Positions 3,001 through 64,000 of a stretch of 64,000 nucleotides of DNA are shown in pieces. Below the pieces are notes generated by a model. That model was not told the origin of the DNA, did no database searches, and was given only the letters and a program-made list of their open reading frames with translations. Numbering within the stretch: the first letter of the stretch is position 1; each line of letters begins with the position of its first letter. The position numbers and the translations under genes are program-made. The stretch is from a virus: IMG/VR virus record IMGVR_UViG_3300031521_000009, one strand, 5' to 3'.

Positions 3001-4629
3001 AAATTTGCTATTATATATTTTAGAGAAACTATCGTAAACAGCTTCTTTAATAGTCTTGTCAGTAAGTGTACCGGCAGCTTCTTTAGCAGCTAATTTTTGA
3101 GCCATTGGAGCATAGATTTCTCTCATAGCCTTTTCAGCAATATTTGGTCCTAGTTGTTCACCAATCCATTTATTTGTAAAATGTTCAGTAACGTATGTCA
3201 ATGGTAAAGCAAAGAATCCAAATTTAGCAGTTGTTTCCGGACTAACACCATTTTCATCAGCTACACGTTGAAATGAACTATAAGACTGTGAAGTACCAAT
3301 AGCATTTACTAGAAACTCAGTACCATACTGCAAAGCTTTTGTTGCAACACTTTTACCGGCAAATGCAGCAGTTCCTTCTAATGCGGACATAGCACCACCC
3401 GAAGCCATACCTACAGCTATCTGAGGAAGAAGATAACCAAGTGTCGGAGCTTGACGTACCATCCAATCAATAGCACCAGTTCCTTGTTCTGTTGATGCTG
3501 ATTGTTTAAACTCTGCTTGTTTCCATTCATTGAAATAATCTTGTAGTGCTTTGTCACCTTTCGCCCAATTCAATGGTTGTGCTTCTCTACGTAATGAATT
3601 ACCTACATTGGATGGAAGTGAACTATAAGAATAATTGAATGCTTGATTCATGGCGGTATAATCTCCTGATTCAAATGCTTTATCAAGTTCTTCTACAGCT
3701 TTTGTATTACCTTGCGCTAGGTTAGCAGCACGTACCTTATCATAATGCTTTTGAATGGCTTCATTACCTTGTTTATAAAGATAAGTTTCATCATGATTCA
3801 TTGCATTATTAAAAAGAGCACCAACAGAAGAAAAGGAACTCATAGTACCGGCGGTTGCAGCACTGTAAGCTCCTACAAAGAAATCTTTAATAGAACTACC
3901 GAATGTTTCTTTTGGACCCCACTTAGTTGAATACTGTCTATCTCCTGCAACAAAAGCATCTGATGGTAGTACATCAAATACTTCACGTCCATTAGTAGGG
4001 TCAATAGTAGTTGTTACAACTGCTTTACCATCACCAAACATTTTATCCATTCCATCCTTACCTGGGTTAGGAATACGTTTACCATTCTTTAAAATATATG
4101 GAGCAGCAGAAGCACGTTCTTCACCGGTACCACGTTCATTATCTTCATTACGAAAAATATCATGATAAGGTGCATAAGAAGGTGTAAGGTCTTTTACATT
4201 GCCAAGATACTTATCAGACATTGAACGACCACTTACTTCCGGTGATTGTACATCATTCTGAAATTTTAATGCGGCCAAATCAACACCACGTTTATTTAAA
4301 CTTACTTTCTTAGCATTTTGTATTTTTGCTTGATTATAAGTTTTTACTATTTGACTTGCTGGTATAGCGTCTGTATCAAGAGGATTTTTTTCTTTTGAAT
4401 ACTTGTCTACATAATAGTTTACATCGTTGAAAATAGGCTGTTCAGAATGCGCCATAGAGGTAAGTATATCTGCAGTGGATTGCTTATTCTTTAAAGCATC
4501 TCCAACTACATCAACTGTTCCTTGATAATTTCCTTCTTGATCTACAAATGCATCACTAGACTGTGCTTGATATTTTTCTTCAAGTGTTGGTACTACTGGT
4601 TGTGTTTGTTCTTGTTCTTGGTTAGCCAT
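1..4629 (-). CDS. Giant virion cargo/ejection protein, 3'-truncated by the window edge (>1543 aa; may be related to crAss-like giant virion proteins including the virion RNA polymerase)
   Basis: ATG at 4629 (MANQEQEQTQPVVPTLEEKY...). The parts I translated by hand (start region and left edge) are open and the ORF track shows no stop-terminated minus-strand ORF here. Gly/Ala hydrophobic segments (PTLGYLLPQIAVGMASGG, LGTIFATTLMTAITGAV) and a SEVFQENFEQ motif resemble ejected polyvalent proteins. No RNAP catalytic motif noticed in the parts read. Confidence 0.8.
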   Translation of the reverse strand, partial: MANQEQEQTQPVVPTLEEKYQAQSSDAFVDQEGNYQGTVDVVGDALKNKQSTADILTSMAHSEQPIFNDVNYYVDKYSKEKNPLDTDAIPASQIVKTYNQAKIQNAKKVSLNKRGVDLAALKFQNDVQSPEVSGRSMSDKYLGNVKDLTPSYAPYHDIFRNEDNERGTGEERASAAPYILKNGKRIPNPGKDGMDKMFGDGKAVVTTTIDPTNGREVFDVLPSDAFVAGDRQYSTKWGPKETFGSSIKDFFVGAYSAATAGTMSSFSSVGALFNNAMNHDETYLYKQGNEAIQKHYDKVRAANLAQGNTKAVEELDKAFESGDYTAMNQAFNYSYSSLPSNVGNSLRREAQPLNWAKGDKALQDYFNEWKQAEFKQSASTEQGTGAIDWMVRQAPTLGYLLPQIAVGMASGGAMSALEGTAAFAGKSVATKALQYGTEFLVNAIGTSQSYSSFQRVADENGVSPETTAKFGFFALPLTYVTEHFTNKWIGEQLGPNIAEKAMREIYAPMAQKLAAKEAAGTLTDKTIKEAVYDSFSKIYNSKFIKGIVDNESYLANVAKANVSEVFQENFEQALYNTVQMQVDKTAPAYSEVGNGQIGTTGVFEGFSDTSLGTIFATTLMTAITGAVPHVIKKIKGIPDSKTEVQQKELLKWKVLKGQGDELINIATDHIQKPDGGMWGVKDILIKDATIGEQFDPNLFVVPKSPSLQKLGYQEGQLIDNFAEMRYVEFVQLVDSYKELNESMGLNDVDRNILSQAGFDSQISLNKSGQAFIDMRDSKAAIESFQPKEAGATATDEQIAQLQKENEEAKQPLVDKYNKALAEYEYYTKREEGTQNSKAANDLMKRNITVMKQVEMEMQGLTNSKEFTREMKNDPNFQRQYTASWENVIKKNFTYENIENLRQRVDEAAQAQQSTASGIISDIDNQTTYSTLSSDLDTLQQRIGNTLTKSYDEAEHKSLITDIAGLSNRLAKELSVFNDQTGKVFGSVMDNTKLDEIKNKWGQLYDSSKGLTSNIAQQAEGKILTPANEKVDTYTKRVAELEPFITTKQSEYDSQLEVINSLPVEATNEQRQEQTDKLTSIQNELNHYQQESQLAAEEVGKAERTIESFDDEQFSHDNQLNAVARALGLENVNNQYSSFSGKGKLPFMRIDGQTLEHANETPEEFNKRIELMREQNTPNGKTFLSNYFTELQDTMKEAETWIDSVLTDQGETYKKEYPDGKFYGTNGSEIIRQEITRIKENEHFLYTFKTSERIANEKKVNDHQSLQEKEFVSELASKNANGDNEYELQLRDALRMADELASKIDGADLANQMLRLHSRVIIHENTFKSVQLFTTLGLRRSDGTQIISQNLIEELNAIGELDPSILDTKGQLTESQLTQLSKRENIVNNILSEMNVEYNKENSELFSKDNQDLLFEIFREFYVTNDSIGEDGKVLNSEGTLLHADDSASHIGENGSLTNSTRELHARNPLFTMQSIGGVTKRKYNFSSSNANDITRLREHLNTLIWIGSKYSMNDMFKIRKMIFTNESNTPLETGEQEAAINSI

Positions 4630-56678: not shown

Positions 56679-58349
56679 ATGAATGAAATTGTTCAAATTC
56701 CATTAGTGTATATTGTTGCGTCCAAGTTAAACCCTCGGAAAACAATAAACCAAGACTCTATAATTGAGTTATCACAAAGTATTAAATCAGTAGGGTTGTT
56801 GCAGCCTATTACTGTACGTAAAATTGAAGAAGATGATTATCCAACAAATGATGTTTATGAAGTAATCATGGGTTATCGTCGTTATTGTGCATGTAGTCAT
56901 CTTGGAATGACAACAATGCCATGTATCATTGTAGAAATGGATGATGAAGAAGTACTGGATGCAATGATCATTGAGAACTTACAACGCCAGGATATCGAAC
57001 CTATGGATGAAGCGCGGGCATTTGCTAACCTCAATAACAAAGGTTGGACTGGTGAAGATATTGCTGTAAAGGTTGGTAAGCCGGTTCTATTTGTAATGCA
57101 TAGAATACGCTTGCTTGAGCTTATTGCTGAGTTTGTAAAAATGTTTGATGAAAATGAATTATCCATTTCTCATGCTTATGAATTATGTAAGCTTGACAAA
57201 GATATTCAGTTAGATATTTACAAAACTCGTTATAGCGAAGAAGCCAGTGATTACTATCGGTGGAATGATCTTAATCTAAAAGATTTAAAATCGAAAATAC
57301 AAAATCTTGCAAAGAACTTAGACAATGCTTCTTTTAGCTTGGCTGAGTGTATTACTTGTCAGTTTTGTACTTCTATCCATGGTTCTTTATTCCCGGACTA
57401 CAAAATCAATTCTTGTACTAATAGCTTCTGTTATGATGATAAAATCTTTGAACATCGTATGAACAATATTATTCTTGCACATGAAGAAGATACTACTATT
57501 ATGATTCGTTCATTAGGTACAAGTAATCGGGTTCTTGATAAGCTGAAAGAATTGCATATACCAGTTGTAGTGTTTAGTACCGAAGAATACGATTTTGAGC
57601 ATGATAAGAGCGATGATCTATCCTTTCATGATAAAATGGTCAAGAAAGGATTTGAAGCTGTTTACGGGCTTGATACATGGTCTGGTGGTGATAAGATGTT
57701 TTATATAAAAGCAAAGATTACCAAAAAAGATATTGCTGCTGCAGGAACAGTTCATCCGGAACTTATAAAGCTTGACAAAGACCTTGTTCGTAAAGAGGAA
57801 ATCAAAGAGGAAAAGATTAATGCTGATCTTAGAAGTCTTATTTCCGGTAGTAACTATCGTGAGATAAGTACACCACTACTTCCTATTGAAGAAACTGCTT
57901 TTATGGCTGTCATATTCTATATGGCTTCTAACAGTAAATTAAAAGAGATAAGAACAAAATTCAAGAAAGATTTGTCTTACATGGAAAACATACAAAACAT
58001 GTTACCCGAGGATATTATTACATTGAAACGCTGCTTTATCAAACAATGTATTGTTGGAACAGAAGTAACTCATGATGCAGATGTACAGAATATCCTTTCA
58101 AACATTTCTAATGTCTTTTACTCAGATAAGTTTGGGGAGATTGTCGAAGAACATACGGCTACATGTAACAAACGTAAGGATCGTATTGCTATTCGTAAAC
58201 AAGTCATTCTTGATGAATTGAATCCAGTAAAGAAAGAACTTGTTGAAAAGAAAACAGTATCATTAGCTGATGCTGATGCACAGGTACCTTATATCCCTAA
58301 GCAAAAAGAAGAAAATGAATATGTCAAATTTGGTAACATTGGAGAATAA
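56679..58349 (+). CDS. parB: ParB/RepB/Spo0J family protein, 556 aa
   Basis: NPRKT...ELSQSIKSVGLLQPITVR...YEVIMGYRRY...IIENLQRQDI, HTH; Cys-rich CxxC region. Confidence 0.88.
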   Translation: MNEIVQIPLVYIVASKLNPRKTINQDSIIELSQSIKSVGLLQPITVRKIEEDDYPTNDVYEVIMGYRRYCACSHLGMTTMPCIIVEMDDEEVLDAMIIENLQRQDIEPMDEARAFANLNNKGWTGEDIAVKVGKPVLFVMHRIRLLELIAEFVKMFDENELSISHAYELCKLDKDIQLDIYKTRYSEEASDYYRWNDLNLKDLKSKIQNLAKNLDNASFSLAECITCQFCTSIHGSLFPDYKINSCTNSFCYDDKIFEHRMNNIILAHEEDTTIMIRSLGTSNRVLDKLKELHIPVVVFSTEEYDFEHDKSDDLSFHDKMVKKGFEAVYGLDTWSGGDKMFYIKAKITKKDIAAAGTVHPELIKLDKDLVRKEEIKEEKINADLRSLISGSNYREISTPLLPIEETAFMAVIFYMASNSKLKEIRTKFKKDLSYMENIQNMLPEDIITLKRCFIKQCIVGTEVTHDADVQNILSNISNVFYSDKFGEIVEEHTATCNKRKDRIAIRKQVILDELNPVKKELVEKKTVSLADADAQVPYIPKQKEENEYVKFGNIGE

Positions 58350-59298
58350 TCAATTAGATAAGGATTTAATAAAAGAACACAATGAATTAATCAAATCAAA
58401 AAGCAAATCTCCTAGGATATATGAAATTCGAATGGCCATTTTTAAAAAATATAAATGTACATGGGATGATGAAACCGGATTAATTTATTTAGACCTTGAT
58501 TATAATCCAATTAAAGAAAGTTCAAACAAAAAAGAACAAGTAAAAAAACAAATAAGTGAAATTTCTATGAATGCAAAAAACATATTATTACAATGTACAG
58601 TAGTACAAAATCGCGTATATCTACCGGACGAACAAATCGACCGTAAGCTTTATATGGAAGTTGCAAAAGCGTTAGAACTTATCGGTGGTAAATGGACTGG
58701 TGGTAAAATAAAGGCCTTTGTGTTTGCTGAGGACCCAACAGATTTATTAGCCGAGATAGCTAGTGGTGAAAAACGTAATCTAAAGAAAGAACATCAATTC
58801 TTTGGTACTCCGCCAGAACTTGCTGACAGACTTATAGAACTTGCTCAATTAAACAACTTTGATCGTGTTCTAGAGCCTAGTGCCGGACAAGGTGCTATCG
58901 TTGAAGCAATGCAACGCAAATGGCATAATATCGTGCCTACATGTGTTGAGAATATGGGACTCAATTCTATTGTTCTTACAAAGAAACAGATTACCCATTT
59001 CTTTCAAGACTTTCTTACTTCAGAATGTAGTAAGCCATTTGATAAGGTTATCGCTAATCCACCATTCACAAAGAATCAGGATATTGATCATATCTATAAA
59101 ATGGTAGAAGTCTGTAAACCCGGGGGAATAGTGGTATCATGTGCTTCTAATCATTGGAGAGAATCAAAGAACAAGAAAGAAACTGAGTTCAGAGCTTTTC
59201 TTGATGGTATGGGTGCTGTTATCGAAGAAATACCAGCCGGTACCTTTAAAGAAAGTGGAACTATGATTGCAGCTTGTATTGTAATCATTCATGTATGA
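58321..59298 (+). CDS. N6-adenine DNA methyltransferase-like protein, 325 aa
   Basis: QFFGTP, motif I VLEPSAGQGAI, motif IV NPPF, FKESGT. Confidence 0.85.
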   Translation: MSNLVTLENNQLDKDLIKEHNELIKSKSKSPRIYEIRMAIFKKYKCTWDDETGLIYLDLDYNPIKESSNKKEQVKKQISEISMNAKNILLQCTVVQNRVYLPDEQIDRKLYMEVAKALELIGGKWTGGKIKAFVFAEDPTDLLAEIASGEKRNLKKEHQFFGTPPELADRLIELAQLNNFDRVLEPSAGQGAIVEAMQRKWHNIVPTCVENMGLNSIVLTKKQITHFFQDFLTSECSKPFDKVIANPPFTKNQDIDHIYKMVEVCKPGGIVVSCASNHWRESKNKKETEFRAFLDGMGAVIEEIPAGTFKESGTMIAACIVIIHV

Positions 59299-59504
59299 CA
59301 AACGATAGTACCTTGAATAATGACCTATTTGCTATGTATCAAGAGCAAGAAGCCCTTGAATTTAGTAGATGGGTCAATTCGGTAGAGAAGCATGTAAGTA
59401 CGCTTAAAACGAAGCTATGTAAGTCATGCAACAAAAACAAATTAGAAGTAGTAAGTATGTATAAAGCAGAATGTACAAATTGTCTAACATTAAACTCATT
59501 TTAA
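59295..59504 (+). CDS. Zn-ribbon small protein, 69 aa
   Basis: CKSC...CTNC; start MTNDS. Confidence 0.6.
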   Translation: MTNDSTLNNDLFAMYQEQEALEFSRWVNSVEKHVSTLKTKLCKSCNKNKLEVVSMYKAECTNCLTLNSF

Positions 59505-59505
59505 A

Positions 59506-59769
59506 ATGAAAAGAGAAAATATAAAACGTGCTTCTGAATTAAGTTCTGAAATAACTGGACTTGAACAATTGCTAGAAGATATAAAACTTCAAGAAAAAAC
59601 CAAAATTGTAAGTGGATTTTCAATTATGATTCCAGCAAATAGAAATTCATCTGGAGTTTCTATTACTAGATATATATCAAAAGAAATGAGAGATATATTA
59701 GTAATTCTAGCTAAAAATGAAGTAGAAAGAATTATTGCTGAAAAAGAAAAAGAAATCGAAACACTTTAA
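59506..59769 (+). CDS. Hypothetical protein, 87 aa
   Basis: Coiled-coil termini. Confidence 0.65.
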   Translation: MKRENIKRASELSSEITGLEQLLEDIKLQEKTKIVSGFSIMIPANRNSSGVSITRYISKEMRDILVILAKNEVERIIAEKEKEIETL

Positions 59770-59779
59770 ATAACACAAC

Positions 59780-60064
59780 ATGTCACAAGAAATAGAAAAG
59801 TTTATATCATTAATTAGAGATTCGTTTGTTGGTTCTCAGCAAGTATATACAAATGGAAGTTGTTATCATTTTTATCTTATACTTAAAAATATATATCCAA
59901 GTGCAAAATGTTGGTATGATGAAAGTCATATTATTACAGAAATTGATGGTAAGTTTTATGACATTACTGGAGAAGTACAAAAAAATTCAAATCTTTTAAT
60001 TATGGATCATCCAGCTCATTATAGTTTAAAAAATCCATTTAATATTTACAATATACAAAAATAA
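59780..60064 (+). CDS. Hypothetical protein with papain/transglutaminase-like Cys-His-Asp signature, 94 aa
   Basis: YTNGSCYHF...HIITEIDGKFYDITG. Confidence 0.6.
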   Translation: MSQEIEKFISLIRDSFVGSQQVYTNGSCYHFYLILKNIYPSAKCWYDESHIITEIDGKFYDITGEVQKNSNLLIMDHPAHYSLKNPFNIYNIQK

Positions 60065-60068
60065 AAAT

Positions 60069-61544
60069 ATGTCAGAAATTAAAATTCATATCAAGAATTA
60101 CAAACTTCTCAAAGAAGGAGAATGGGATTTATCAAATGGTACTATCTTCTTCGCACAAGGCGGAAACAAAAAAGGTAAGACTTCTTTCTTGAATCTTATC
60201 CAAGCACTCATGGAAGTAAAAGATACTACTGTCAATCCAGTAACTTTTGGTGAGAAAGAAGGATTTGCTACCGGTACAATACCTGGCGCTGATGGTTTAC
60301 AATACCAATTTCGTTACGACTTTAATATTGATGGTAAGAACAAATTTCAGTTCATTGCTCCAGACAATAAAGTTGTCAAAGGAATTACTGAAATGCGCGC
60401 TATCTTCAATTATACTCATTTTACATTGGAAGAGTTCTTTGAATGGAGTAAAACAGAACCGGGCCGTGCTAAACAACGTGCTATCTTCATGAACTTACTT
60501 TCAGAAAAAGAACGTGAAGAGATAATGAAAATAGATGCTGAGATTCATCCTACAAAAGGAACAATGATCGATTCGCGTAAAGAATTGAATAAGTCAGTTG
60601 ACTTCTTGAAAAAGAGTATTGACAATATCGTATTCAATCCGGAACAACAAAAACTTATTACTGATGCTCCGGCTATTCAAAAGTTGTTTACTGAACTTAC
60701 TGCTCGTAAAGAAGAGATTGATGAAACAATTAAAGGATTCGATACTTATCAAGTGAAGTTGGATGCAGAAAATGAAAAACTGGATCCACTAAAAAAATCA
60801 CATAATAAGCAAGTGGAAAGTCTTACTAACTCCATTCGTTTTGCCAAAGAAGAAATTGACCGTCTTACCAAAGAATTGGCAGCCGATGAAAAGAAACTGG
60901 AAACTGAGAATGCTGAGTACGAAACTTCTGAAAAAGCAATCACTGCAGCAATCACTGAATTGAATACTAAGTTCGATGTGAAAGTACTTGAAGCTGCAAA
61001 ATTAGAATTAGATGGTGATGGTACTGAAAAGAATATTGGTCTTGCCAAACGATTAGAGATTGGCCAGACAAAAATCAATCAGTATAATCAATTGGATGTA
61101 TTAGTAAAACAAAAAGCAAAGAATGAAGAAGATCATAAAAAGAAGGAAAGTGAAGTTAGTGAGTTGGACGAGAAGATTACGACTCTCCGCACCAAGAAAA
61201 AGGAAATCATCAAAAACAGTCAGAACATGCCGGTTGGTTGGTCGATTGATGATGATTATGTTACTATCGATAATATTCCTTTTCTGGAAACTGATATTTG
61301 TAAGTCGGAAGCGACTGCTGCTATTGCTCAATTGATGATGCGCGTAAATAAGGCTCCATTGATGCTTATGGGCGATGCTGAGGCCTTGGGATATGAAGTA
61401 CTCAATAAGCTTGAGGAAACAGCTAAGAGTCTTGGTAAGGTAATGCTATTCGCTGAACATGTTCGTTCTGCTGATGAAATGCAGTTGGTTGGTTATGATC
61501 AAATCGACCATGAAGTAAAGAAAGAAGATAAAGAATTATTTTAA
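60069..61544 (+). CDS. SMC/Rad50-like ATPase with long coiled coil, 491 aa
   Basis: IHIKNYK, Walker A GGNKKGKTS, coiled coil, C-terminal Walker B-like LMLMGDAE. Confidence 0.8.
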   Translation: MSEIKIHIKNYKLLKEGEWDLSNGTIFFAQGGNKKGKTSFLNLIQALMEVKDTTVNPVTFGEKEGFATGTIPGADGLQYQFRYDFNIDGKNKFQFIAPDNKVVKGITEMRAIFNYTHFTLEEFFEWSKTEPGRAKQRAIFMNLLSEKEREEIMKIDAEIHPTKGTMIDSRKELNKSVDFLKKSIDNIVFNPEQQKLITDAPAIQKLFTELTARKEEIDETIKGFDTYQVKLDAENEKLDPLKKSHNKQVESLTNSIRFAKEEIDRLTKELAADEKKLETENAEYETSEKAITAAITELNTKFDVKVLEAAKLELDGDGTEKNIGLAKRLEIGQTKINQYNQLDVLVKQKAKNEEDHKKKESEVSELDEKITTLRTKKKEIIKNSQNMPVGWSIDDDYVTIDNIPFLETDICKSEATAAIAQLMMRVNKAPLMLMGDAEALGYEVLNKLEETAKSLGKVMLFAEHVRSADEMQLVGYDQIDHEVKKEDKELF

Positions 61545-61545
61545 T

Positions 61546-61579
61546 AACTAGAACCTTCTCACTGGTATAGGTAAAGTGA
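61546..61579 (+). promoter_or_regulatory. Conserved leader motif, copy 1 (AACTAnAACCT-n-GGTATAGGTAA), pseudoknot-like
   Basis: ACCT/AGGT stem; loop TCACT pairs with 3' AGTGA; ends 9 nt before ATG 61589. Confidence 0.6.
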
Positions 61580-61588
61580 TATTCTATT

Positions 61589-61957
61589 ATGAGTGAAAAT
61601 ACTGGTTCAAGACCTGCAAGTATTGCAGAAGTTATTGCTCCTATTTGCTATCAAGCAAATAAAGCATTTTGCGAAAGTTATGGTGATTATTCTCAAAAAG
61701 ATTGGTATCAAGCCGATGATTGGCAAAAACAAAGTGCTATTAAAGGTGTACAATTTCGTATTGAAAATCCGGATGCTGGACATGATGCACAGCATAATTC
61801 ATGGATGGCTGAAAAAGTTGCTGATGGATGGGTATATGGAGAAAGTAAAAATGCAGAAGCAAAAACTCATTCATGTATTGTTTCTTTCGAACAATTACCT
61901 ATTTTCCAACAAAAGAAGGATGCATTATTCTGTGCTATTGTAGATTCTTTGAAATAA
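61589..61957 (+). CDS. Stand-alone RyR-domain protein, 122 aa
   Basis: HNSWMAEKVADGWVYG...KTHSCIVSFEQLP..QQKKD. Confidence 0.85.
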   Translation: MSENTGSRPASIAEVIAPICYQANKAFCESYGDYSQKDWYQADDWQKQSAIKGVQFRIENPDAGHDAQHNSWMAEKVADGWVYGESKNAEAKTHSCIVSFEQLPIFQQKKDALFCAIVDSLK

Positions 61958-61990
61958 AACTAAAACCTAGTGCGGTATAGGTAAGCCAAT
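61958..61990 (+). promoter_or_regulatory. Conserved leader motif, copy 2
   Basis: AACTAAAACCTAGTGCGGTATAGGTAAGCC upstream of ATG 61999. Confidence 0.6.
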
Positions 61991-61998
61991 CAATAATT

Positions 61999-62325
61999 AT
62001 GGATTTTATACAAGCTATCAACACTTATCCAATGATTCAAAGAATTGGATGGAATGGTAACGGACTATTTGTATTTCAACAAATACCTTCTGAAATACCA
62101 ATTTTTGTTGTCCTAAAAATGCAATCATTACCTGAAGCAGTAAAAGATGAATTTGCACGTCGTTTTGAAGTTCCAATGACAAAAGAAGAAGCAAAACCAT
62201 TTTTGTCTATTCGTTACAACAATCAATTAGCAATAGTTGATAAGGAAAACAATATCAATGGATGGGCACCTTCTGTTTCTGATGCATTGGCCGAGGATTG
62301 GATTGGATATATACCGGAGGTTTAA
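61999..62325 (+). CDS. tad2: DUF2829 / Tad2-family anti-defence sponge protein, 108 aa
   Basis: MDFIQAI...RIGWNGNGLFV...GWAPSVSDALAEDW. Confidence 0.82.
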   Translation: MDFIQAINTYPMIQRIGWNGNGLFVFQQIPSEIPIFVVLKMQSLPEAVKDEFARRFEVPMTKEEAKPFLSIRYNNQLAIVDKENNINGWAPSVSDALAEDWIGYIPEV

Positions 62326-62326
62326 A

Positions 62327-62692
62327 ATGGGAAAAGTATCAACAATTGATACCAAACGCAATCTTTGTGGTAATTGTAAAAGCAGCTACCCTGATTGCAC
62401 TGGTCAGCCGGAATTTGGCGATAATGTCGGAAATAATAATGTTATCCGATGTAAGAAGTATGTAAAGAAAAAAACAAATGTTGTTCGCGTATCAGTAGGT
62501 GAAGAGTATTTTGTTTATATTTTGAAAAATCAAAATGTTTCTATGAATGATTTCATTTCAAGAAAAAGAGTAGAAACAAACAACACTACAGATAATCTGT
62601 ATTATGAAGTTGGAAACTATTTTCTGACAGAGGGAGATTGCAAATCAGAGATTGAACGAGTAACAAAATTGAAACGTAATGGCACAAGGTAA
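62327..62692 (+). CDS. Hypothetical protein with N-terminal Cys cluster, 121 aa
   Basis: NLCGNCKSSYPDC...NVIRC; GNYFLT C-terminal motif. Confidence 0.65.
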   Translation: MGKVSTIDTKRNLCGNCKSSYPDCTGQPEFGDNVGNNNVIRCKKYVKKKTNVVRVSVGEEYFVYILKNQNVSMNDFISRKRVETNNTTDNLYYEVGNYFLTEGDCKSEIERVTKLKRNGTR

Positions 62693-63302
62693 ATTAATCA
62701 GTTTCGTACCACTGATGAAAAATGGCGTACAAGATACATATAGTGGAAGTAATGGTATGCTTTATAAGTTTACTGTTACTCTTGATAATGCCGGTACACA
62801 AGTAACCGGAACAGCAAATAGTAGCAAACAACAACCATCATGGAAGATTGGTGAAGAATATACTTATGAAGTAGCAATACAAGGAAACTATACCAATATC
62901 AAAAATATGAAGTCTATAAATCAGGCTGGTGGTTTTGGTGGCAGTGGTGCTCGTGTTCCTAATCCTAGCTTTGTAGTACAGAAATGTCTTGAAGCTTCAT
63001 TGGAATGTACTTTCAAATTCTTTGAACTTAATCCGGATGTGTACAAAAGTCAAGCTGCAGAAGATGGTGTATTGAATTTGTTCTATACATTCACATTAAA
63101 AGGTGATGAACAACAACGATGGATGAATATTGCCGGACTTCGCTTTGCCTTACAAAAGATGCAAGCGAATGGTATGTTTGATAAAGCAGAAGGAGTAACA
63201 CTTACTGCGTGGACTATTGAAAAGGCTAAAACTATTGCAGCTTCTATGTCCTCAGTAGTAAAAGCTCAAGTAGAATTTGAAAAGGCTAATCCACCCAAAT
63301 AA
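62679..63302 (+). CDS. Putative OB-fold ssDNA-binding protein, 207 aa
   Basis: YKFTVTLDN...GTANS...WKIGEEYTYEV...NIK followed by a Gly-rich linker. Confidence 0.55.
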   Translation: MAQGKLISFVPLMKNGVQDTYSGSNGMLYKFTVTLDNAGTQVTGTANSSKQQPSWKIGEEYTYEVAIQGNYTNIKNMKSINQAGGFGGSGARVPNPSFVVQKCLEASLECTFKFFELNPDVYKSQAAEDGVLNLFYTFTLKGDEQQRWMNIAGLRFALQKMQANGMFDKAEGVTLTAWTIEKAKTIAASMSSVVKAQVEFEKANPPK

Positions 63303-63305
63303 TTT

Positions 63306-63452
63306 ATGCCAGATAGATATTCAATTAAAAAGAATAAAGAGAATGGATTATTTAATGTTTATTTTGGAACAATGTATTGTTTTACTTATGATACTTATCA
63401 AGAAGCAAAAGACCATATTCAAAATATGAAAAAACGATATAAAAATGAGTAA
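63306..63452 (+). CDS. Hypothetical protein, 48 aa
   Basis: MPDRYSIKKNKENGLFNVYFG...; fills the gap. Confidence 0.5.
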   Translation: MPDRYSIKKNKENGLFNVYFGTMYCFTYDTYQEAKDHIQNMKKRYKNE

Positions 63453-64000
63453 GACATATATCAATCAGTCATTAATAAAAAAGTTCTTCTACAAAGGAGA
63501 AAAACGTGATTACTGTGCTATGGCCATAAAGGCTAATACTATTGATAAAACAGTAAGTCGGGAATCACTATCAATGACATGTGGTAATTATTTTGAAACA
63601 CAATGTCTGGGTGCTTCTATTGGTGGCAAGAAAACACTTGATTTGCCAAGAAAGAAACTTACTGCTAAGCAAATTCTTGCCGGTCAAACAATAGGTGATA
63701 AAAAAATTGATCAGATACGTATTGACCAGCAAGTGATGATGTTCAACAAACTCAAAACTGAATATCAGATACCAATAGAGAAAGAGATGAATACCCAAGT
63801 CGGTGTAAAGAAAATATGGAGTAAGAATGACAATATTATCTTACAAGGTGAGATTGATATATTCCCTGCTTCTATTGCATTACCGACACGTGGTTTACGA
63901 CTTTGTGCTATTGATTTAAAGCTTACTGGTACATTCTCTGACTATGGTGAGTTCTGTTGGGGTTCTCCAACTAATTTAGACGGCATACAAGGCAAGATGT
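63445..64000 (+). CDS. PD-(D/E)xK exonuclease (RecE/Cas4-like), truncated by the window edge
   Basis: MSKTYINQSLIKKF...GNYFE...LQGEIDI...IDLKLT...W...Q; no stop before 64000. Confidence 0.75.
   Translation, partial: MSKTYINQSLIKKFFYKGEKRDYCAMAIKANTIDKTVSRESLSMTCGNYFETQCLGASIGGKKTLDLPRKKLTAKQILAGQTIGDKKIDQIRIDQQVMMFNKLKTEYQIPIEKEMNTQVGVKKIWSKNDNIILQGEIDIFPASIALPTRGLRLCAIDLKLTGTFSDYGEFCWGSPTNLDGIQGKM

What the first reader, a model, noticed from the sequence alone, without database searches (positions are those of the whole stretch)
61589..62325. Stand-alone RyR-domain protein paired with Tad2: candidate new immune-signal sponge
The DUF2829/Tad2 family is established as a sponge for Thoeris gcADPR, and some members also bind cyclic dinucleotides. 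Its immediate upstream neighbour is a small single-domain RyR protein (seen), a domain found in bacteria fused to signalling proteins and proposed to bind nucleotides. The shared leader motif implies co-regulation. Inference: the RyR protein is a second anti-defence factor that sequesters a nucleotide second messenger.
Basis: partly seen in the sequence, partly recalled or inferred. Interest (0 to 1): 0.75.

Follow-up and report, generated by a model that had tools for sequence, protein, structure and literature searches.

The report
Phage RyR-domain sponge beside Tad2

Summary
ORF 61589-61957 (122 aa) is a stand-alone Pfam RyR/R12 domain. ORF 61999-62325 (108 aa) is a Tad2-like protein by sequence, motif and fold. 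The window is a crAss-like tailed phage.

Two 2026 preprints (PMC13232231, RyDEP; 10.64898/2026.06.04.730250, RyR Tad) showed that phage RyR-domain proteins sequester 2'/3'cADPR, or in one case hydrolyse it, and defeat Thoeris. The window protein is 48% and 44% identical to two tested sponges. It keeps all six ligand residues (H69, W72, K87, H94, K110, D111). It is predicted as a four-helix protein that forms a dimer through helices a1 and a4. No NARP1 genes are present, so a sponge is more likely than the glycosidase type.

What I add:
- RyR and Tad2 form a recurrent module. Ten of 28 longer relatives are RyR-Tad2 fusions, in both domain orders, and others are fused to Acb2/Tad1-hairpin domains.
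- RyR is a present/absent cassette among relatives.
- The shared leader is a real, covarying hairpin element: box AACTAAAACCT, then a stem whose loop carries GTATAGG. In another phage it also precedes RyR and an Acb2-like gene.

Within this scan, only notes on this same stretch existed before.

The parts
61545..61588 (+). Leader 1. It has the box AACTAGAACCT (61546-61556) and stem arms TCACT (61559-63) and AGTGA (61575-79) around the loop G-GTATAGG-TAA. The ATG follows 10 nt after the stem.
   Evidence: Covariance model R1 scores it 47.9 bits. It is 44/44 identical in relative L105, where the RyR CDS is 92% identical.
61589..61957 (+). RyR/R12-domain protein of 122 aa, a member of the RyDEP / RyR Tad anti-Thoeris family. 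Ligand residues are H69, W72, K87, H94, K110 and D111.
   Evidence: Pfam and PHROG matches. PDB hits include 35TM, the RyDEP-3'cADPR complex. Alignment with gp78, gp68 and H4. AF2 pLDDT 89.5 with four helices. Foldseek top hits are RyR R12 domains. Dimer prediction.
61958..61998 (+). Leader 2. It has the box AACTAAAACCT (61958-61968) and the loop GGTATAGGTAA (61974-61984). The stem is degenerate here, only GC/GC. The ATG lies 14 nt after the 11-mer.
   Evidence: R1 scores it 54.1 bits. It is 40/41 identical in L105, where the Tad2 CDS is 83% identical.
61999..62325 (+). Tad2-like sponge of 108 aa, of the long-insertion HgmTad2/SptTad2 type. The gcADPR motif is kept: W18-N19-G20 and W89, S92, S94, D95.
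62327..62692 (+). Cys-rich ORF of 121 aa that abuts Tad2 with a 1-nt gap. It has no family match and is context only. It may belong to the same transcription unit.
   Evidence: Its dN/dS against L105 is about 0.40, similar to RyR at 0.46 and Tad2 at 0.64 and unlike orf207 at 0.08.

Best explanation
The 122-aa protein is a stand-alone, sponge-type member of the phage RyDEP / RyR Tad family. I infer the following mechanism. It is made early in infection. It forms a back-to-back homodimer through helices a1 and a4. Each protomer binds one ADPR-derived Thoeris signal (3'cADPR or 2'cADPR, possibly cADPR) in the pocket lined by H69, W72, K87, H94, K110 and D111. This keeps ThsA-type effectors from being switched on. 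The neighbouring Tad2 is a second sponge, with its own gcADPR pocket and probably a cyclic-dinucleotide pocket. Together the pair widens or reinforces cover against signalling immunity. Each gene carries its own copy of a conserved hairpin leader. Shown here: family membership, residue conservation, the predicted fold and dimer, and the genomic linkage. Inferred: the ligand, sponge rather than enzyme, timing, and the role of the leader.
For: - The Pfam RyR match is above the cut-off.
- The protein is 44% identical over 111 aa to CB1 gp68, the RyR Tad crystallised with 1''-3' gcADPR at KD 43 nM. It is 48% identical to Ruegeria H4, a nanomolar sponge active in vivo.
- The invariant residues H69, W72, H94, K110 and D111 correspond to gp68 H129/W132/H154/K170/D171 and RyDEP H75/W78/H100/D117 at identical spacing. 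K87 corresponds to gp68 K147.
- The a1-a2 segment (CExxGDxSQxxW...WQKxSA) is of the H4/H7 sponge type and not the DyoEdafos type.
- The AF2 model has four helices at pLDDT 89.5. The Foldseek top hits are all RyR R12 or B. thetaiotaomicron RyR-like structures.
- Homodimer prediction: ipSAE 0.74 against 0.01 for the best of 3 controls. The mark was reached by 20 of 30 proteins solved as pairs of one chain and by 1 of 23 solved as single chains. The runs agree in at least 96% of contacts and the partner pLDDT is at least 89. The counts hold only roughly, because I used my own alignment and ADP-ribose rode along. The interface is residues 15-30 and 109-121, that is a1 and a4, as in both crystal structures. 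Similar dimers are solved, so this pass shows likeness, not binding.
- No NARP1 genes lie in the window or in the 10 kb beyond it.
- Linkage to sponges: 10 of 28 longer relatives are RyR+Tad2 fusions and 2 are RyR+Acb2/Tad1-hairpin fusions. In the 80 IMG/VR loci there is 1 Tad2 fusion and 5 Acb2-hairpin fusions. Six of 112 distinct immediate neighbours are Tad2-like or Acb2/Tad1-hairpin, against 0 of 112 distant ORFs from the same loci (Fisher one-sided p about 0.015, my own arithmetic).
- RyR is present in some relatives and absent in others.
- dN/dS is 0.46, so the gene is constrained but evolving fast.
Against: No biochemistry exists for this protein. Two of the eight homologs tested in PMC13232231 did not bind the signals, so membership does not guarantee binding. 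The catalytic dyad of the glycosidase (H69/D111 here) is also intact. The host is unknown, so it is not shown that it carries Thoeris. Two gcADPR binders side by side look redundant, which could mean that the RyR protein has another ligand. The Foldseek E-values are modest, 1.2e-3 at best, although the probability is 1.00.
Confidence: 0.75

Rival explanations
1. The protein is a glycosidase-type RyDEP. Like DyoEdafos gp78, it hydrolyses the ribose-ribose bond of 2'/3'cADPR to linear ADPR rather than merely sequestering the signal.
For: The H/D dyad (H69/D111, corresponding to H75/D117) and the other pocket residues are intact. It hits PDB 35TM directly at E 1e-7. With a Tad2 sponge next door, an enzyme would be complementary rather than redundant.
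Against: Only DyoEdafos RyDEP cleaved the signals; none of the eight tested homologs did, although the dyad is conserved. The window protein is 26% identical overall to gp78 (37% over 67 aa), against 44-48% to the proven sponges. It has no NARP1 partner genes to use the ADPR product.
Confidence: 0.13
2. The protein is a RyR-domain nucleotide binder with another target. The target could be a different ADPR-derived or adenine nucleotide signal (His-ADPR, N7-cADPR, cyclic oligoadenylate, ATP/ADP), or the role could be outside counter-defence.
For: Animal R12 domains bind ATP/ADP (PMC12627627). RyR Tad binds several ADPR-type molecules. Two of eight homologs did not bind gcADPR. Tad2 already covers gcADPR.
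Against: All six gcADPR-contact residues of the crystallised sponge are kept. Close relatives are fused to Tad2 or Acb2/Tad1 domains. The gene behaves as an accessory cassette.
Confidence: 0.1
3. The adjacency with Tad2 is accidental, and the two genes act independently with no functional coupling.
For: None of 10 other RyR-bearing phage records carries a Tad2. The closest RyR relatives at 80% identity (L096, L099) have a different neighbour. A relative has Tad2 without RyR.
Against: RyR+Tad2 fusions occur in both domain orders and with Tad2 domains 26-51% identical to the window's, in unrelated phage contexts. RyR is followed by Tad2 in L068, and Tad2 is followed by a RyR-Acb2 fusion in L042. 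The leader is shared.
Confidence: 0.2

Closest known systems
RyR Tad (Pectobacterium phage vB_PatP_CB1 gp68; 10.64898/2026.06.04.730250), which is RyDEP homolog H7 of PMC13232231
   Same: The R12 domain is 44% identical over 111 aa. All six mutagenised ligand residues are conserved. The dimer forms through a1 and a4. The gene is phage-encoded and lies in a region of accessory and replication genes.
   Different: gp68 has an extra N-terminal beta domain (residues 1-70) that is absent here. gp68 sits in the N4-like primase-vRNAP hotspot, whereas this gene is in a crAss-like phage between an ATPase gene and Tad2.
RyDEP homolog H4 (Ruegeria phage, identical to DSS3phi2 orf53; PMC13232231)
   Same: It is a stand-alone R12 protein of about 122 aa, 48% identical to the window protein. 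It is a tested sponge with nanomolar affinity for 3'cADPR and defeats type I Thoeris.
   Different: Its phage family (Schitoviridae) and host (Alphaproteobacteria) differ. It has no Tad2 in its genome.
RyDEP (Mycobacterium phage DyoEdafos gp78, PDB 35TM)
   Same: It has the same fold, pocket residues and dimer architecture.
   Different: It is only 26% identical overall. It is a glycosidase embedded in a NARP1 NAD+-resynthesis operon, which is absent here.
Tad2 / DUF2829 (HgmTad2/AcrIIA7 8KBI-8KBK, SptTad2 8WJD, SPO1 Tad2, ModTad2)
   Same: The neighbouring ORF has the fold (TM 0.61-0.68) and the gcADPR motif WNG...W.xS.[ST]D. It also has the long insertion that carries the cyclic-dinucleotide pocket in HgmTad2. 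Of the HgmTad2 pocket residues, S47 and N85 are kept as S43 and N87, and F70 is replaced by the aromatic Y73.
   Different: HgmTad2 R31 is Q28 here, so cyclic-dinucleotide binding is uncertain. Identity to the solved Tad2 proteins is only 25-29%.
Sponge fusions such as Acb4-Sequestin (Ab09 gp59; 10.64898/2026.06.04.730250)
   Same: Two signal-binding modules are combined to cover more than one signal. Relatives of this RyR protein are fused to Tad2 or to Acb2/Tad1-hairpin domains.
   Different: The two modules are separate genes here. A text search found no mention of RyR-Tad2 or RyR-Acb2 fusions in either preprint.
Repeat12 (R12) domain of animal ryanodine receptors and the B. thetaiotaomicron RyR-like protein (3NRT, 6UAG)
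   Same: The window protein shows sequence and fold homology to them and shares the conserved adenine-ligand residues.
   Different: The animal domain is a tandem repeat inside a 5000-aa Ca2+ channel. The phage protein is a single repeat that dimerises.

Membership tests
RyDEP / RyR Tad (phage R12-domain anti-Thoeris proteins) | Pfam PF02026 RyR domain above the curated threshold | tested here: met
   The match scores 36.4 bits against a cut-off of 27.4. The precomputed PF02026 annotation is present on all close homologs.
RyDEP / RyR Tad (phage R12-domain anti-Thoeris proteins) | Ligand-pocket residues: His and Trp on a3, a phosphate-binding His, and Lys-Asp at the start of a4 (RyDEP H75/W78/H100/D117; gp68 H129/W132/K147/H154/K170/D171) | tested here: met
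   H69, W72, K87, H94, K110 and D111 align with identical spacing (residue roles). H69, W72, K87, H94 and K110 are invariant in 25 relatives and D111 is nearly invariant at 90% or more.
RyDEP / RyR Tad (phage R12-domain anti-Thoeris proteins) | Four-helix R12 fold | tested here: met
   The AF2 model has pLDDT 89.5 with helices at 12-29, 44-59, 67-78 and 105-121. The Foldseek top hits are all RyR R12 or B. thetaiotaomicron RyR-like, with probability 1.00, best E 1.2e-3 and TMq up to 0.63.
RyDEP / RyR Tad (phage R12-domain anti-Thoeris proteins) | Homodimer through helices a1 and a4 | tested here: met
   This is a prediction only. ipSAE is 0.74 against a best control of 0.01. The mark was reached by 20 of 30 proteins solved as pairs of one chain and by 1 of 23 solved as single chains. 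Contact agreement is at least 96% and partner pLDDT at least 89. The interface is residues 15-30 and 109-121. The pass may be from memory of solved dimers.
RyDEP / RyR Tad (phage R12-domain anti-Thoeris proteins) | Binds (or cleaves) 2'cADPR/3'cADPR and rescues phage from Thoeris | not testable with these tools
   This needs EMSA, SPR or HPLC and plaque assays.
Glycosidase-type RyDEP (DyoEdafos subtype) | Embedded in, or co-occurring with, NARP1 (Adps/Namat) genes that recycle ADPR to NAD+ | tested here: not met
   tblastn with DyoEdafos gp77 and gp79 found no significant hit in the window or in L013, the 10 kb beyond it.
Glycosidase-type RyDEP (DyoEdafos subtype) | Catalytic His/Asp dyad | tested here: inconclusive
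   The dyad is present (H69/D111), but it is equally present in the non-catalytic sponges H4 and H7.
Tad2 (PF11195 / DUF2829), for ORF 61999-62325 | Pfam match, Tad2 fold and gcADPR-binding motif (HgmTad2 W21/N22/G23, W87, S90, T92, D93) | tested here: met
   The Pfam match scores 40.7 bits. All Foldseek hits at E 3.4e-2 or better, best 2.5e-6, are Tad2 structures. W18/N19/G20, W89, S92, S94 and D95 align to the motif (alignment; residue roles). R15, W18 and D95 are invariant in 35 relatives, and G17, N19, G20, W89 and S92 are nearly invariant at 90% or more.
Tad2 (PF11195 / DUF2829), for ORF 61999-62325 | Tetramer that binds gcADPR, with or without cyclic dinucleotides | not tested

The most novel reading that the evidence does not exclude
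RyR and Tad2 are two cassettes of a mobile pool of anti-signalling genes. Each cassette travels with a dedicated, structured leader: box AACTAAAACCT, then a 4-6 bp covarying stem, then a GTATAGG-containing loop, all 8-12 nt before the start codon. This leader would be a so far undescribed expression signal (promoter, operator or processing site) shared by unrelated Bacteroidota-type phages. In that case it would flag further, still unknown counter-defence genes, namely the small no-family ORFs that follow it in other phage contigs. The frequent RyR-Tad2 fusions would mean that the two sponges work as one unit.
Probability: 0.3. Interest if true: 0.7.

Novelty: new member of a known kind. Interest (0 to 1): 0.4.

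Why it matters
The protein extends the newly described RyDEP / RyR Tad counter-defence family to a crAss-like phage lineage that is abundant in metagenomes. It also shows that the family is tied to other sponge families. RyR-Tad2 and RyR-Acb2/Tad1 fusions are common among close relatives, which points to selection for multi-signal or high-capacity sponges and gives natural constructs to test. The conserved hairpin leader, found in front of RyR, Tad2 and Acb2-like genes in unrelated phages, could become a practical handle for finding new anti-defence genes and for studying how phages time their expression. The core claim, that a RyR domain acts as an immune-signal sponge, is already published, so the protein itself is confirmatory.

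Tried and rejected
- Megablast of 59000-64000 against GenBank phages gave no match.
- No whole genome is held for this window.
- A Tad2 (PF11195) search in 10 other RyR-bearing phage records found none. The pairing is therefore lineage-specific and not universal.
- Single-sequence folding of the two leaders gave no energy better than shuffles (z 0.55 and -0.10). On that basis I first discounted a structure. It was later supported by covariation across 33 distinct instances.
- A sigma-70 promoter and terminator scan showed nothing informative at the leaders.
- An Rfam search of 61400-62400 gave only chance-level hits.
- The strict leader pattern in IMG/VR gave 61 hits, about the number I estimate by chance from rough arithmetic. 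Only about 25 of them have the full architecture.
- An ESM Atlas look-up for the 121-aa and 207-aa downstream ORFs gave no usable lead.
- A search for NARP1 genes found none.
- My first dN/dS value for the ATPase 3' end was computed in the wrong frame and is discarded.
- I did not build a phylogeny of the nine tested homologs. Pairwise identities were judged sufficient.

Full report
**What is in the sequence**

Two + strand ORFs occupy the stated interval. ORF A runs 61589-61957 (122 aa) and ORF B runs 61999-62325 (108 aa). ORF A matches Pfam RyR (PF02026) at 36.4 bits against a gathering score of 27.4, and PHROG 5154 at 4.8e-42. ORF B matches Tad2-like (PF11195) at 40.7 bits against 25.

The window is a tailed phage. 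Large terminase, portal and major head protein genes lie on the minus strand. GC content is 32%. The terminase is distantly related (27-29% identity) to those of crAss-like phages of Bacteroides, Flavobacterium and Cellulophaga. This agrees with an earlier first-stage note of a giant RNAP-bearing virion protein beyond the window end.

The exact RyR protein, followed by the same Tad2, occurs on many metagenomic contigs: 100 index blocks, with contigs up to 172 kb.

**What the RyR protein is**

A literature search found two 2026 preprints that define the family.

- PMC13232231 (Lopez Rivera et al.) identified Mycobacterium phage DyoEdafos gp78, named RyDEP. It is a glycosidase that opens 2'cADPR and 3'cADPR. 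Its structure is PDB 35TM, and its key residues are H75, W78, H100 and D117. Six of eight other phage homologs bind the signals without cleaving them. Two of those, H4 from a Ruegeria phage and H7 from a Pectobacterium phage, are nanomolar sponges that defeat type I Thoeris.
- 10.64898/2026.06.04.730250 (Fedorova et al.) independently found Pectobacterium phage CB1 gp68, named RyR Tad. It is a dimeric sponge crystallised with 1''-3' gcADPR. Mutations of H129/W132, K147/H154 and K170/D171 weaken binding about 100-fold.

I fetched these genes from their GenBank records and aligned them. The window protein is 48% identical to H4 (which equals DSS3phi2 orf53), 44% identical over 111 aa to the gp68 R12 domain (E 9e-32), and 37% identical over 67 aa to gp78. 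H69, W72, H94, K110 and D111 are invariant in the four-way alignment, with exactly the published spacing. K87 matches gp68 K147. PDB 35TM is hit directly (E 1e-7).

The AF2 model (pLDDT 89.5) is a four-helix protein. Its best Foldseek matches are all RyR Repeat12 domains or the B. thetaiotaomicron RyR-like protein.

A two-copy complex prediction gave ipSAE 0.74 against 0.01 for the best of three controls. The mark was reached by 20 of 30 proteins solved as pairs of one chain and by 1 of 23 solved as single chains. Contact agreement was at least 96% and partner pLDDT at least 89. The counts hold only roughly here. The interface is residues 15-30 and 109-121, that is helices a1 and a4, as in both crystal structures. 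Similar dimers are solved, so this result shows likeness rather than independent proof.

**Sponge or enzyme**

The catalytic dyad is present, but it is also present in the non-catalytic homologs, so it does not discriminate. Three things favour the sponge type:
- sequence proximity to H4 and H7 rather than to gp78;
- the a1-a2 segment, which is shared with the sponges;
- the absence of NARP1 genes that would use the ADPR product.

I put sponge at about 0.75 and glycosidase at about 0.13.

**The Tad2 neighbour**

ORF B hits the HgmTad2/AcrIIA7, SptTad2, ModTad2 and SPO1 Tad2 structures by sequence. Its AF2 model (pLDDT 89.4) has only Tad2 structures among its significant Foldseek matches, with TM 0.61-0.68 to the long-insertion, cyclic-dinucleotide-binding subtypes. 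The HgmTad2 gcADPR residues (W21/N22/G23, W87, S90, T92, D93) align with W18/N19/G20, W89, S92, S94 and D95. Of the HgmTad2 cyclic-dinucleotide residues, S47 and N85 are kept as S43 and N87, F70 is replaced by the aromatic Y73, and R31 is Q28. A second pocket is therefore possible but uncertain.

**Is the pairing meaningful**

The pairing is not universal. Ten other RyR-bearing phage records carry no Tad2. The nearest RyR relatives at 80% identity have another neighbour.

The link does recur, however.
- Among 28 longer relatives (51-73% identical in the RyR part), 10 are RyR+Tad2 fusions, 2 are RyR+Acb2/Tad1-hairpin fusions and 3 are RyR+PF13876 fusions.
- The RyR+Tad2 fusions occur in both domain orders. 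Their Tad2 parts are 26-51% identical to the window's Tad2, and they sit in unrelated phage contexts.
- P0098, a RyR-Tad2 fusion, is itself followed by an Acb2/Tad1-hairpin gene.
- Among the best 80 of 375 IMG/VR loci there is one Tad2 fusion and five Acb2-hairpin fusions.
- L068 has RyR followed by Tad2. L042 has Tad2 followed by a RyR-Acb2 fusion.
- Of 112 distinct immediate neighbours, 4 are Acb2/Tad1-hairpin and 2 are Tad2-like, and these are two of the three commonest families. None of 112 randomly drawn distant ORFs from the same loci belongs to either family.

A text search of the two preprints found no mention of RyR fusions.

Within the phage's own lineage, relative L105-L108 keeps the pair. 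Relative L109/L110 has the ATPase gene followed directly by the leader and Tad2, with no RyR. RyR is therefore a present/absent cassette.

Against L105, dN/dS is 0.46 for RyR, 0.64 for Tad2, 0.40 for the next ORF and 0.08 for orf207 (a single pair with small counts). This pattern fits fast-evolving but functional accessory genes.

**The leader**

Both genes are preceded by AACTARAACCT, then 7-9 nt, then GGTATAGGTAA, then 14 nt, then ATG. The motif is unique to these two sites in the window.

In relative L105 the leaders are 44/44 and 40/41 identical, while the two coding regions are 92% and 83% identical. Under a simple binomial, this is about 2e-4 by my own arithmetic.

An IMG/VR pattern scan returned about the chance number of hits overall. 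About 25 of them share the full architecture and carry different, complementary stem arms around the GTATAGG loop: TGGT/ACCA, CGGT/ACCG, ACGAT/ATCGT, ACTGT/ACAGT, TCTGT/ACAGA, TTGGC/GCCAA and TCAAT/ATTGA. The window's leader 1 has TCACT/AGTGA, and leader 2 keeps only GC/GC.

A covariance model built from 22 instances found 35 instances in the fetched loci. On that alignment all 5 pairs show double-sided changes. The covariation score is 0.422 against 0.159 +/- 0.028 in shuffles (0 of 500 reach it) and at most 0.139 in slid controls. The caveat is that the alignment is fitted to the model.

One result is independent of the training set. The model hit three sites in L081, a 129-kb complete phage genome. 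There the leader precedes a RyR gene, a small membrane ORF and an Acb2/Tad1-hairpin gene.

In large phage genomes the element occurs 1-5 times, clustered on one strand. It matches no Rfam family. The phi14:2 study reported no common early-promoter motif for crAss-like phages. Whether it acts in DNA or in RNA is unknown.

**Verdict**

The finding is therefore a new member of a known kind.

Three points are incremental additions: the RyR-Tad2 (and RyR-Acb2/Tad1) module, the cassette behaviour of RyR, and the conserved hairpin leader.

Noticed in passing
window 61545-61588 and 61958-61998; L081 3775-3821, 4646-4693, 4932-4977; L117, L119, L121-L123, L131, L134, L139, L142, L145, L146, L151, L154, L155, L157, L162, L166, L168, L169: A conserved leader element lies 8-12 nt before start codons of small phage genes. 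It consists of the box AACTAAAACCT, a 4-6 bp stem with compensatory changes, and a 9-11 nt loop containing GTATAGG. It occurs in 1-5 clustered copies per genome. It matches no Rfam family. In two unrelated phages it precedes RyR, Tad2 and Acb2-like genes, and elsewhere it precedes ORFs with no family.
   Followed up: partly
L081 3818-4321 (IMGVR_UViG_3300025913_000022): The RyR gene of this 129-kb phage has one in-frame TAG at 4088-4090. It aligns with the conserved Gln of the WQ[RK]xSA motif, which suggests TAG=Gln recoding in that phage rather than a broken gene.
   Followed up: partly
L109 2216-2585 and L110 (ENA contigs), compared with window 61545-62325: A relative of the window's phage has the ATPase gene followed by one leader and Tad2 (77% identical), with no RyR gene. 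RyR plus a second leader copy therefore behaves as an inserted or deleted cassette.
   Followed up: yes
P0139, P0140, P0147 (proteins): Three RyR relatives are fused to PF13876 (the N4 gp49 / Sf6 gene 66 family), a domain of unknown role. It may be another candidate partner for signal-binding modules.
   Followed up: no
L042 3489-4564: Three sponge-type domains lie in a row: a Tad2-like gene (3489-3764) followed by a RyR-Acb2/Tad1-hairpin fusion (3932-4564).
   Followed up: partly
window 62327-62692: A 121-aa Cys-rich ORF (CGNCK...C...C) abuts Tad2 and matches no family in Pfam, PHROGs or the Atlas. It is conserved in gene order in L105 with dN/dS of about 0.40. It could be a further accessory or counter-defence gene.
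   Followed up: partly
window 56679-59298: A ParB_N/HTH_ParB protein (556 aa) overlaps the start of a DNA methyltransferase-like gene (342 aa, NPPF motif; PHROG 9133 at 2.4e-56). This looks like a ParB-methylase anti-restriction style pair a few kb upstream of the sponge genes.
   Followed up: no
window 60069-61544: A 491-aa protein with an N-terminal Walker A (GGNKKGKTS) and a long coiled coil (PHROG 1499, function unknown) lies immediately upstream of the RyR leader. It is conserved in all relatives, including the one that lacks RyR.
   Followed up: no
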